Notes under the pieces: generated by a model | The model's database searches: none | Told to the model about the DNA's origin: nothing | What the model saw: the letters and a program-made list of their open reading frames with translations, nothing else | In this document: positions 19,829 to 20,975 of the stretch, piece after piece | Numbering within the stretch: position 1 is the first letter of the stretch | Layout: each line of letters opens with the position of its first letter | NCBI GenBank assembly: GCA_009914755.4 | Contig: CP068257.2 | Coordinates: forward strand, 29,952,001 to 30,016,000 | DNA: 64,000 bases | Direction of reading: 5' to 3' | DNA from: the human T2T-CHM13v2.0 reference genome, Homo sapiens | Translations under genes and position numbers: made by a program

Positions 19829-20045
19829 TTTTGCCCATTTGTGGACATCAGAAATTGCCTTGTGTGTTACAATTGCTAATGATGTTAATACTACTTGTGG
19901 AGCATACCAGGACTGGGAAAGATTGGTTGTACAAAAATACAAGGAAAACATTCATCATTCATTTTTTTCTCATCATCATACTCCCCAACCCCACAAGAAA
20001 TCAAGCCTCAATTGTCATGGAATTATTGGCTAGTGACCAGCAATA
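19829..20045 (+). repeat. left arm of a long inverted repeat (palindromic, TIR-like element)
   Basis: TTTGCCCATTTGTGGACATCAGAAATTGCCTTGTGTGTTACAATTGCTAATGATGTTAATACTACTTGTGGAGCATACCAGGACTGGGAAAGATTGGTTGTACAAAAATACAAGGAAAACATTCATCATTCATTT...AAGCCTCAATTG...CTAGTGACCAGCA; reverse complement recurs at 20758-20975. Confidence 0.85.
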
Positions 20046-20113
20046 AAAGAGTGAAACAATTAAATAGAATCCAGTGCCCCCAGGCTTGTGCTATTAACAT
20101 CAAAAGAGAACTT

Positions 20114-20415
20114 GGCTGGGTGTGGTGGCTCACGCCTGTAATCCCAGCACTTTGGGAGGCTGAGGCAGGGGGATCACCTGAGGTCAGGAGTTCGAGACCA
20201 GCCTGGCCAACATGGTGAAACTCCATCTCTACCAAAAATACAAAAATTAGCTGGGCATGGTGGTATGCGCTTGTAATTCCAGCTACTAGGGAGGCTAAAG
20301 CAGGAGAATTGCTTGACCCCAGGAGGTGGAGGTTGCAGTGAGCTGTGATTGTGCCACTGCACTCCAGCCTGGGAGACAGAGGGAAACTGTGTCTCAAAAC
20401 AAAATAAAACAAAAC
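20114..20415 (+). mobile_element. Alu SINE, full length (inserted in the spacer of the palindrome)
   Basis: GGCTGGGTGTGGTGGCTCACGCCTGTAATCCCAGCACTTTGGGAGGCTGAGGCAGGGGGATCACCTGAGGTCAGGAGTTCGAGACCAGCCTGGCCAACATGG ... A-rich tail. Confidence 0.9.
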
Positions 20416-20757
20416 CAGAACTCACCTCCTTTTCTTATTGCAACAATTAAATGAGATGATTCAAGCAAAGTGCTGGGTGCAAGGTAAGCCCTCAGTAAAT
20501 GAATTCTTATAATCATGCCTCCACCTCATGGGCAAAACTACCAGCTAAATCCTTTTCAGTGTCAAAGAAATGAAATTCAAGGAAACTAAATCAATTAGAG
20601 CCAGACAGGAGGCTACCCGTCTTTGAACCGAAACAAGAGGAACAAGGCCAGGGTGGGAAAGAAGGCCAGGGGTGTAAACTTCGTTTCCATTTACACTAGA
20701 GTTACCTACAAAATGAAATTCTCCCAATGTCAAAACAACAGTGAGGTGGTGGCGCCA

Positions 20758-20975
20758 CCTGCTGGTCACTAAGACACAGTTCTGTGGCAACTGAGGCTTG
20801 ATCTCTTAGTGGTTGTGAGGAGGAGAAAATGAATGATGAATGATTTCCTTGTATTTTTGTACAACCAATCTTTCCAGGCCCTTTTGTGCTCAGCAGGTAG
20901 TAATAACATTGTTAGCAATTTTAACACACAAAGCAATTTCCGATGTCCACAAACGGGTAATTTTGCACTTAGATG
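20758..20975 (-). repeat. right arm of the long inverted repeat
   Basis: GCTGGTCACTAAG...CAACTGAGGCTTGATCTC...AATGAATGATGAATGATTTCCTTGTATTTTTGTACAACCAATCTTTCCAGGCCCTTTTGTGCTCAGCAGGTAGTAATAACATTGTTAGCAATTTTAACACACAAAGCAATTTCCGATGTCCACAAACGGGTAATTTTGCAC, the reverse complement of 19829-20045 at ~85-90% identity. Confidence 0.85.

What the first reader, a model, noticed from the sequence alone, without database searches (positions are those of the whole stretch)
19829..20975. ~1.15-kb palindromic element with ~220-bp inverted arms flanking an Alu-containing spacer
Sequence 19829-20045 recurs as its reverse complement at 20758-20975 (e.g. TTTGTGGACATCAGAAATTGCCTTGTGTGTTACAATTGCTAATGATGTTAATACTAC versus the reverse complement of GTAGTAATAACATTGTTAGCAATTTTAACACACAAAGCAATTTCCGATGTCCACAAAC; also GGAAAGATTGGTTGTACAAAAATACAAGGAAAACATTCATCATTCATT versus AATGAATGATGAATGATTTCCTTGTATTTTTGTACAACCAATCTTTCC). 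The two ORFs 19818-20033 (+) and 20890-21075 (-) share 'LWTSEIALCV.IAN.V.TTC', confirming the symmetry at ~85-90% identity. The ~710-bp spacer contains a full Alu (20114-20415), so the original element was ~850 bp with a ~400-bp loop. Candidate explanations are a long-TIR nonautonomous DNA transposon relic, an ancient inverted segmental duplication, or a hairpin-forming structure. I do not recognise the arm sequence as a standard repeat family.
Basis: seen in the sequence. Interest (0 to 1): 0.5.

Follow-up and report, generated by a model that had tools for sequence, protein, structure and literature searches.

The report
Decayed long-inverted-repeat transposon fossil with Alu
A real but ordinary ~0.8-kb relic in primate DNA: two ~200-base inverted arms, most likely the ends of an old non-coding cut-and-paste transposon, later interrupted by an Alu, with no sign of present function.

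Summary
The inverted repeat is real. Arm 19831-20042 pairs with the reverse complement of 20760-20960: 167 of 201 aligned bases (83%), 11 gap columns, BLAST E 2.6e-48, and no third copy in the window. The 717-nt spacer holds an AluS with its own imperfect target duplication. Without it the element is about 805-817 bp with a roughly 400-nt asymmetric loop.

New here: if the element is taken as 19835-20956 (CCATTTGTGG...CCACAAACGG), the adjoining 10-mers GTCTTTTTGC and GTAATTTTGC match 8/10. Only 1-3% of random controls did as well. Arm mismatches are patchy (P about 0.01-0.02).

Long arms plus an 8-10-bp target duplication is the signature of a non-autonomous Mutator-like element. In humans that class is the Ricksha group. 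I favour that reading at about 0.5. A local inverted duplication is the main rival, at about 0.33.

No Dfam or primate genome search was possible, so family membership and copy number remain untested. I found no coding capacity, no Rfam match in the arms, and no evidence of function. The arms differ about twice as much, per arm, as the Alu does from its consensus, so the element predates the Alu. Interest is low.

The parts
19825..19834 (+). Candidate left copy of the target-site duplication, GTCTTTTTGC. It could equally be read as an 8- or 9-nt duplication inside these 10 nt.
   Evidence: Matches GTAATTTTGC at 20957-20966 in 8/10 positions, directly abutting the arm ends. An equal or better match was found in 1-2.7% of random-position controls over the same offsets.
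19831..20042 (+). Left arm (terminal inverted repeat). Similarity starts at 19831; under the duplication reading the element proper starts at 19835 (CCATTTGTGGACATC...).
   Evidence: 83% identical to the reverse complement of 20760-20960, E 2.6e-48.
20043..20113 (.). Loop, part A (before the Alu). Unique sequence.
   Evidence: No symmetry with the rest of the loop. No significant match elsewhere in the window.
20114..20418 (+). AluS element with an A-rich tail, a secondary insertion into the loop. It is flanked by an imperfect duplication, AAAAGAGAACTT / AAAACCAGAACTC.
   Evidence: Rfam Metazoa_SRP hits 20115-20231 (69.9 bits) and 20250-20397.
20419..20759 (.). Loop, part B. Contains a MIR SINE 3' fragment at 20424-20501 (+), followed by 258 nt of unique sequence.
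   Evidence: No inverted symmetry inside the loop.
20752..20765 (-). CTCF-core-like motif CCAGCAGGTGGCGC spanning the junction of loop and right arm. It overlaps the perfect 12-nt palindrome GGTGGCGCCACC (20748-20759). This is incidental; binding was not tested.
   Evidence: It is the only match to CCASYAGRKGGCRS in 64 kb, with 0.06 expected. The consensus was recalled from memory.
20760..20960 (-). Right arm (terminal inverted repeat). Under the duplication reading the element proper ends at 20956 (...GATGTCCACAAACGG).
20957..20966 (+). Candidate right copy of the target-site duplication, GTAATTTTGC.

Best explanation
This is the fossil of a single non-autonomous cut-and-paste DNA transposon with long terminal inverted repeats.

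An element of about 0.8 kb had roughly 205-nt inverted ends and a roughly 400-nt non-coding interior. A transposase supplied in trans inserted it once into an AT-rich site. The staggered cut was filled in, leaving an 8-10-bp direct duplication (GTMWTTTTGC) on each side.

Long inverted ends plus an 8-11-bp duplication is the Mutator-like (MuDR/MULE) signature. In the human lineage that class is represented by the composite Ricksha group, so the most likely identity is a Ricksha-type element. Merlin is a weaker alternative.

After insertion the copy decayed neutrally. An AluS retrotransposed into the interior later. The element now does nothing demonstrable. Its only intrinsic property is that the arms could pair if they were made single-stranded or transcribed.

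Shown: the arms, their divergence, the later Alu, the flanking 10-mers, and the lack of coding or known RNA features.

Inferred: transposition as the origin, the superfamily, and the age.
For: 1. Arms of 212 and 201 nt are 83% identical, with sharp ends and no symmetry beyond them.
2. The 10-mers directly outside 19835 and 20956 match 8/10. This happens in only 1-2.7% of random-position controls with the same offsets and lengths. Their 20% difference also matches the arm divergence.
3. Arm mismatches are over-dispersed. A 47-nt block has 1 mismatch and sits next to a 20-nt block with 10 (permutation P about 0.01-0.02). This is expected if the inverted ends were already imperfect and blocky at insertion, and is less expected for a duplication that was perfect at birth.
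4. There is no ORF with a Pfam match or a protein relative, which fits a non-autonomous element.
5. The literature gives MULE inverted ends as commonly hundreds of bp with 8-11-bp duplications (PMC6446971). Repbase lists the human MuDR families Ricksha, Ricksha_0 and Ricksha_a (PMC5753468).
6. Ricksha is known to have picked up foreign sequence, an ERVL 3' end with its LTR (PMC3531169). A MIR fragment in the interior is therefore not disqualifying.
7. Per-arm non-CpG divergence of about 8% is about 1.9 times that of the inserted AluS (4.3%). That places the insertion before the Alu, in the period when DNA transposons were still active in primate ancestors (my knowledge of Pace and Feschotte 2007; the paper was not retrievable).
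Against: - No second copy could be found anywhere, but the searchable collections hold essentially no primate DNA. Only 20-22-nt chance matches turned up.
- No comparison with Dfam or Repbase consensus sequences was possible, so family membership is unproven.
- The duplication is imperfect, T-rich, and was found after scanning offsets and lengths, so P of about 0.02 is suggestive only.
- The termini (CCA/CCC...) are not a motif I can tie to any superfamily.
- The interior contains a MIR fragment, which is what ordinary host DNA between two duplicated arms would look like.
- Patchy divergence can also come from gene conversion between the arms.
Confidence: 0.5

Rival explanations
1. This is a local small-scale inverted duplication. 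A roughly 210-bp stretch of unique DNA was copied in reverse orientation about 400 bp away, for example by replication template switching or fold-back repair of a break. Both copies then decayed neutrally. The loop is ordinary pre-existing host DNA.
For: - No third copy exists in the window.
- The loop is asymmetric and carries an ancient MIR fragment, as expected of host DNA.
- I do not recognise the arm as a known repeat, and the termini carry no recognisable transposon motif.
- The flanking 10-mer match could be chance in T-rich sequence (1-3%).
Against: - The 8/10 direct repeat sits exactly at the arm ends, which this model does not predict.
- Divergence along the arms is patchy rather than uniform, although gene conversion could cause that.
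- No microhomology or other junction signature was found at the four arm boundaries on reading the sequence.
Confidence: 0.33
2. These are two independent insertions of the same roughly 210-bp repeat (a short SINE, MITE or solo LTR) that happen to lie 0.7 kb apart in opposite orientation.
For: Both arms share both boundaries, as two full-length copies of a short element would.
Against: - Neither arm on its own is flanked by a direct repeat, on reading the junctions.
- A family rare enough to be absent from the other 63 kb would almost never land twice within 1 kb.
- The direct repeat that does exist brackets the pair, not each arm.
Confidence: 0.04
3. This is a selectively maintained hairpin locus. 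The arms are kept complementary because a long double-stranded RNA (a source of small RNAs or an editing substrate) or a DNA cruciform is used by the cell.
For: - If transcribed, the arms are predicted to pair. The duplex is -254.5 kcal/mol against -90 for shuffled arms, and 179 inter-arm pairs appear in the minimum-energy fold even with the Alu present.
- A 47-nt block is nearly identical in both arms.
Against: - Pairing follows automatically from common descent.
- 17% mismatch plus an 11-nt indel looks like decay.
- No Rfam family matches the arms even at E <= 1; the only hit there is noise at 16.6 bits.
- With a 717-nt spacer and 83% identity, cruciform extrusion in duplex DNA is expected to be negligible. 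In yeast, recombination falls about 300-fold when the spacer grows from 12 to 100 bp and is lost at 75% identity (PMC10164571).
Confidence: 0.05

Closest known systems
Ricksha / Ricksha_0 / Ricksha_a-c (human MuDR-type non-autonomous DNA transposons)
   Same: Non-coding. Classed as MuDR on structure alone. Composite elements known to carry foreign sequence between their ends (PMC3531169; PMC2700803). Here there are long inverted ends, a candidate 8-10-bp duplication, and a foreign (MIR) piece inside.
   Different: Sequence identity to any Ricksha consensus could not be tested. The idea that Ricksha_0 is a short, passenger-less form of about this size is my recollection and inference, not a result.
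Pack-MULEs / Mutator-like elements of plants and invertebrates
   Same: Inverted ends of tens to hundreds of bp, 8-11-bp target duplications, and captured host fragments between the ends (PMC6446971).
   Different: No transposase relative is known in mammals. The same paper doubts that the vertebrate 'MuDR' entries are true Mutator relatives. The termini here are not the G-rich Mu-type ends.
Merlin1_HS (human Merlin-superfamily non-autonomous element)
   Same: 8-9-bp target duplications (my knowledge of Feschotte 2004). Listed as a human family in PMC5753468. An 8-nt reading of the duplication is possible here (TCTTTTTG / TAATTTTG, 6/8).
   Different: The lengths and sequences of the Merlin1_HS ends were not available to me. 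Not tested.
Small non-repeat inverted duplications / long inverted repeats of the human genome
   Same: Two arms of a few hundred bp, a spacer under 2 kb, about 80-90% identity, and no function. Stable in duplex DNA because of the spacer and the divergence (PMC10164571).
   Different: Such duplications are not expected to be bracketed by a direct repeat.
Inverted Alu pairs
   Same: These are the commonest inverted repeats in primate DNA. One such pair is present here: the Alu in the loop against the Alus at 21630-22090 (I1/I2).
   Different: The arms of the finding are not Alu, not SRP-related and not MIR.

Membership tests
MuDR / Mutator-like non-autonomous element (human Ricksha group) | Long terminal inverted repeats (tens to hundreds of bp) | tested here: met
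   Arms of 212 and 201 nt, 83% identical, E 2.6e-48. The range of 14-500 bp for MULEs is given in PMC6446971.
MuDR / Mutator-like non-autonomous element (human Ricksha group) | 8-11-bp target-site duplication directly outside the inverted ends | tested here: met
   GTCTTTTTGC (19825-19834) against GTAATTTTGC (20957-20966), 8/10. Matched or beaten in 1-2.7% of random controls. The repeat is imperfect and T-rich, so it is suggestive rather than proven.
MuDR / Mutator-like non-autonomous element (human Ricksha group) | Sequence similarity to the Ricksha, Ricksha_0 or Ricksha_a-c consensus | not testable with these tools
   No Dfam or Repbase library is available. The papers that were readable give names only.
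MuDR / Mutator-like non-autonomous element (human Ricksha group) | Dispersed multicopy family in the host genome | not testable with these tools
   There is no other copy in the 64-kb window. Metagenome, prokaryote-genome and viral collections gave only 20-22-nt chance matches. The protein database gave nothing even for this locus itself. Primate DNA is evidently not covered.
hAT non-autonomous elements (MER/Charlie type) | 8-bp target duplication, short (about 10-25 bp) inverted ends, termini of the CAG/TAG...CTG/CTA type | tested here: not met
   An 8-nt reading gives 6/8. However, the ends are about 205 nt long and begin CCC/CCA, not YAG.
Tc1/mariner (Tigger, MADE1, MER2 type) and piggyBac (MER75/85, Looper) | TA or TTAA target duplication at the element ends | tested here: not met
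   The flanks read ...TTTG|CCC and GGG|TAAT.... There is no TA/TA or TTAA/TTAA pair at any symmetric offset within 8 nt of the arm ends.
Local inverted duplication (no transposition) | Arms single-copy in the genome apart from the pair; no target duplication; stepwise presence in outgroups | tested here: inconclusive
   Copy number and outgroups are not testable. A bracketing direct repeat is present, which argues against this reading at about the 2% level.
Alu (spacer insert) | A 7SL-derived dimer of about 300 bp with an A-rich tail and a flanking duplication | tested here: met
   SRP-model hits to both monomers. Best fit to AluSx from memory, 11.3% divergence. Flanking AAAAGAGAACTT / AAAACCAGAACTC.
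Known structured RNA genes (miRNA, snoRNA and others) | Match to an Rfam covariance model in the arms | tested here: not met
   Only Alu-related hits and sub-threshold noise were found (SCARNA7, 16.6 bits, E 0.46).

The most novel reading that the evidence does not exclude
The element is an unannotated, low-copy Pack-MULE-like transposon of early primates. It captured a piece of host DNA (the MIR fragment plus about 260 nt) and delivered a strong CTCF-type motif (20752-20765) to a new site. That would be evidence that Mutator-like elements transduplicated host sequence and seeded insulator sites in the primate lineage.
Probability: 0.07. Interest if true: 0.4.

Novelty: new member of a known kind. 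Interest (0 to 1): 0.12.

Why it matters
It matters little. At most it is one more fossil of the burst of DNA-transposon activity in early primates, or a small inverted duplication, and genome annotation pipelines classify both routinely.

It would be of modest interest only in two cases. One is if the arm turns out to be absent from Dfam while being multicopy, which would make it a missed long-TIR family. The other is if the CTCF-like motif at the edge of the loop is bound in vivo, which would be one more case of a transposon donating an insulator site.

Tried and rejected
**Searches for more copies**
- Exact-pattern scans with the best-conserved arm 20-mer and 21-mer were run against metagenome, GTDB-genome and viral contigs. 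The ten loci returned share only the 20-22-nt seed with the window, so they are chance matches.
- A chimeric six-frame translation of both arms was searched against 5.8 billion proteins and gave no hit.
- Exact look-ups of two window ORFs were not on record.
- These collections evidently lack primate non-coding DNA, so copy number stays unknown.

**Literature**
- A full-text search for four arm oligomers found nothing.
- Attempts to read Pace and Feschotte 2007 and Feschotte 2004 failed because the papers are not held.

**Structure of the element**
- Symmetry inside the loop or beyond the arms: none.
- Sub-repeats within the arms: none.
- The arms as MIR: no. The arms as Alu or SRP: no.
- TA, TTAA and shorter target duplications: none.

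**MIR fragments**
- I asked whether the loop MIR fragment (positions 164-253) and the right-flank MIR fragment (positions 55-175, 21054-21163) are halves of one MIR split by a rearrangement.
- They are complementary in extent and share orientation, but they lie in the wrong order.
- Neither continues detectably into its neighbouring sequence.
- I could find no parsimonious rearrangement that explains them, so I treat this as coincidence, with a chance of roughly 0.1.

**Other**
- A resemblance of the left end (TTGCCCATTTGTGGAC) to the maize Mu1 end, as I remember it (TTGCCATTATGGAC), was noted but rejected as evidence. It is short, out of register with the terminus, and rests on memory only.

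Full report
**Context**

The window is Alu-rich primate DNA with 45% G+C. Only Alu/SRP-type matches appear in Rfam. An ORF at 44237-44695 (-) reads like several FBXW11 exons fused, so it is a processed pseudogene. FBXW11P1 is discussed among genes spanning a 2.5-Mb region flanking SOD1, alongside TIAM1 (PMC10453398). The window is therefore probably human 21q22.11. That placement is an inference.

**The observation**

The inverted repeat is real.
- The repeat finder gives two collinear inverted segments: 19831-19975 / 20816-20960 (86%) and 19995-20042 / 20760-20807 (77%).
- A gapped alignment merges them into one arm pair, 19831-20042 against the reverse complement of 20760-20960. It has 167/201 identities (83%), 22 transitions, 12 transversions, 11 gap columns, and a K2P distance of 0.195.
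- Within the window, blastn gives E = 2.6e-48, and neither arm has any other match.
- Similarity stops sharply at both ends. The outer flanks show no inverted similarity, and neither does the loop with the Alu removed.
Otherwise the description holds.
- The shared peptide in the two ORFs is just the DNA symmetry translated. These ORFs have no Pfam match and no protein relatives.

**The spacer**

The 717-nt spacer contains an Alu on the + strand at 20114 to about 20418.
- Rfam SRP-model hits cover both monomers.
- It is bracketed by AAAAGAGAACTT / AAAACCAGAACTC. It is therefore a later, independent retrotransposition.
- Removing it leaves a loop of about 400-412 nt and an element of about 805-817 bp.
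- The loop has no internal symmetry.
- At 20424-20501 the loop carries a fragment that aligns to MIR positions 164-253 (z = 8.8; consensus from memory).

**Age**

Outside CpG the arms differ at about 16% of sites, or about 8% per arm. That is roughly 1.9 times the non-CpG divergence of the AluS from its consensus, which is 4.3%. If the arms were identical at birth, the structure is about twice as old as the Alu, dating to early primate or late pre-primate times. It would be younger if the arms were imperfect from the start.

**What made it**

I scanned symmetric offsets around the arm ends for direct repeats of 2-10 nt.
- There is no TA or TTAA pair.
- With the element taken as 19835-20956 (CCATTTGTGG...CCACAAACGG), the adjoining 10-mers are GTCTTTTTGC and GTAATTTTGC, an 8/10 match.
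- Because the terminal C...G can belong to either feature, the duplication may be 8, 9 or 10 nt long.
- In controls that keep one real flank and randomise the other, or randomise both, a match this good over the same offsets occurred in 1-2.7% of trials.
- The two differences in ten positions agree with the arm divergence.
- Mismatches along the arms are also significantly patchy. This fits inverted ends that were blocky and imperfect at insertion, although gene conversion could mimic it.

Long inverted ends together with an 8-11-bp duplication is the structural definition of Mutator-like elements (PMC6446971). The human representatives are Ricksha, Ricksha_0 and Ricksha_a (Repbase list in PMC5753468). 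Ricksha is explicitly described as composite, having picked up an ERVL 3' end with its LTR (PMC3531169; PMC2700803). A foreign MIR piece between the ends is therefore compatible with this class.

I favour a single insertion of a non-autonomous long-TIR transposon of this type, at confidence 0.5. Merlin1_HS, with 8-9-bp duplications, is a weaker alternative.

**Why not higher**

- I could not compare the arms with any repeat library.
- I could not count copies in a primate genome. The metagenome, prokaryote and viral scans returned only seed-length chance matches, and the protein resources do not even contain this locus.
- The duplication is T-rich and was found by scanning.
- The termini are not a motif I can assign to a superfamily.
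- A MIR-bearing asymmetric loop is exactly what host DNA between two locally duplicated arms would look like.

A local inverted duplication therefore remains a serious rival at 0.33. Two independent insertions are very unlikely, because neither arm has its own duplication and the family would have to be rare yet hit twice within 1 kb. A maintained hairpin is unsupported:
- The arms would pair if transcribed (-254.5 kcal/mol; 179 inter-arm pairs in the minimum-energy fold), but that follows from common descent.
- No Rfam model matches the arms.
- An inverted repeat with a 717-nt spacer and 83% identity is expected to be inert in duplex DNA (PMC10164571). That inertness also explains why it has survived so long.

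**Loose ends**

- The right flank carries MIR positions 55-175 (21054-21163, z = 13.8) in the same orientation as the loop's MIR 164-253. Neither fragment continues detectably. The two are complementary halves in the wrong order. I found no simple rearrangement that explains this and regard it as coincidence.
- The only strict CTCF-core consensus match in the 64 kb lies at 20752-20765 (-), across the junction of loop and right arm.

**Verdict**

This is a real, old, decayed inverted-repeat element of an ordinary kind. Most probably it is a long-TIR non-autonomous DNA-transposon fossil that was later hit by an Alu. A Dfam search and a whole-genome copy count would settle its identity in minutes.

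Noticed in passing
window 20752-20765 (-), overlapping palindrome 20748-20759: CCAGCAGGTGGCGC is the only match in the 64-kb window to the CTCF core consensus CCASYAGRKGGCRS, with 0.06 expected. It straddles the junction of loop and right arm and overlaps the perfect 12-nt palindrome GGTGGCGCCACC. The left arm lacks the second half of the motif.
   Followed up: partly
window 20424-20501 (+) and 21054-21163 (+): Two MIR fragments in the same orientation cover complementary parts of the SINE (positions 164-253 inside the loop, 55-175 in the right flank), but they lie in the wrong order for a single split MIR. Neither continues detectably into neighbouring sequence. This remains unexplained and may be coincidence.
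   Followed up: partly
window 44237-44695 (-): A 152-aa ORF reads like fused FBXW11 (beta-TrCP2) N-terminal exons, so it is a processed pseudogene, probably FBXW11P1. That suggests the window is human 21q22.11 near TIAM1 and SOD1.
   Followed up: partly
window 20114-20418 (+) with 21630-22090 (-): The Alu in the loop forms inverted pairs (75-80% complementary, 1.2-1.4 kb apart) with a cluster of minus-strand Alus downstream. This is a commoner and equally strong source of potential double-stranded RNA at this locus.
   Followed up: no
window 19737-19764 / 19773-19800 and 19556-19589: A 28-nt segment recurs 36 nt downstream at 82% identity, ending 30 nt left of the left arm. A (CA)n microsatellite lies further upstream. 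The left flank is very AT-rich.
   Followed up: no
window 19917-19963 paired with 20828-20874: A 47-nt block of the arms (GGAAAGATTGGTTGTACAAAAATACAAGGAAA.CATTCATCATTCA) has a single mismatch between the arms. The 20 nt next to it have 10 mismatches. The over-dispersion has P of about 0.01-0.02. The cause could be a conserved binding block, a gene-conversion tract, or arms that were imperfect from the start.
   Followed up: partly
window ~21281 onward (+): A MaLR-type LTR (THE1/MST-like, starting TGATACGGTTTGG...) begins about 320 nt right of the element and is itself interrupted by the Alu cluster. It was recognised from memory only.
   Followed up: no
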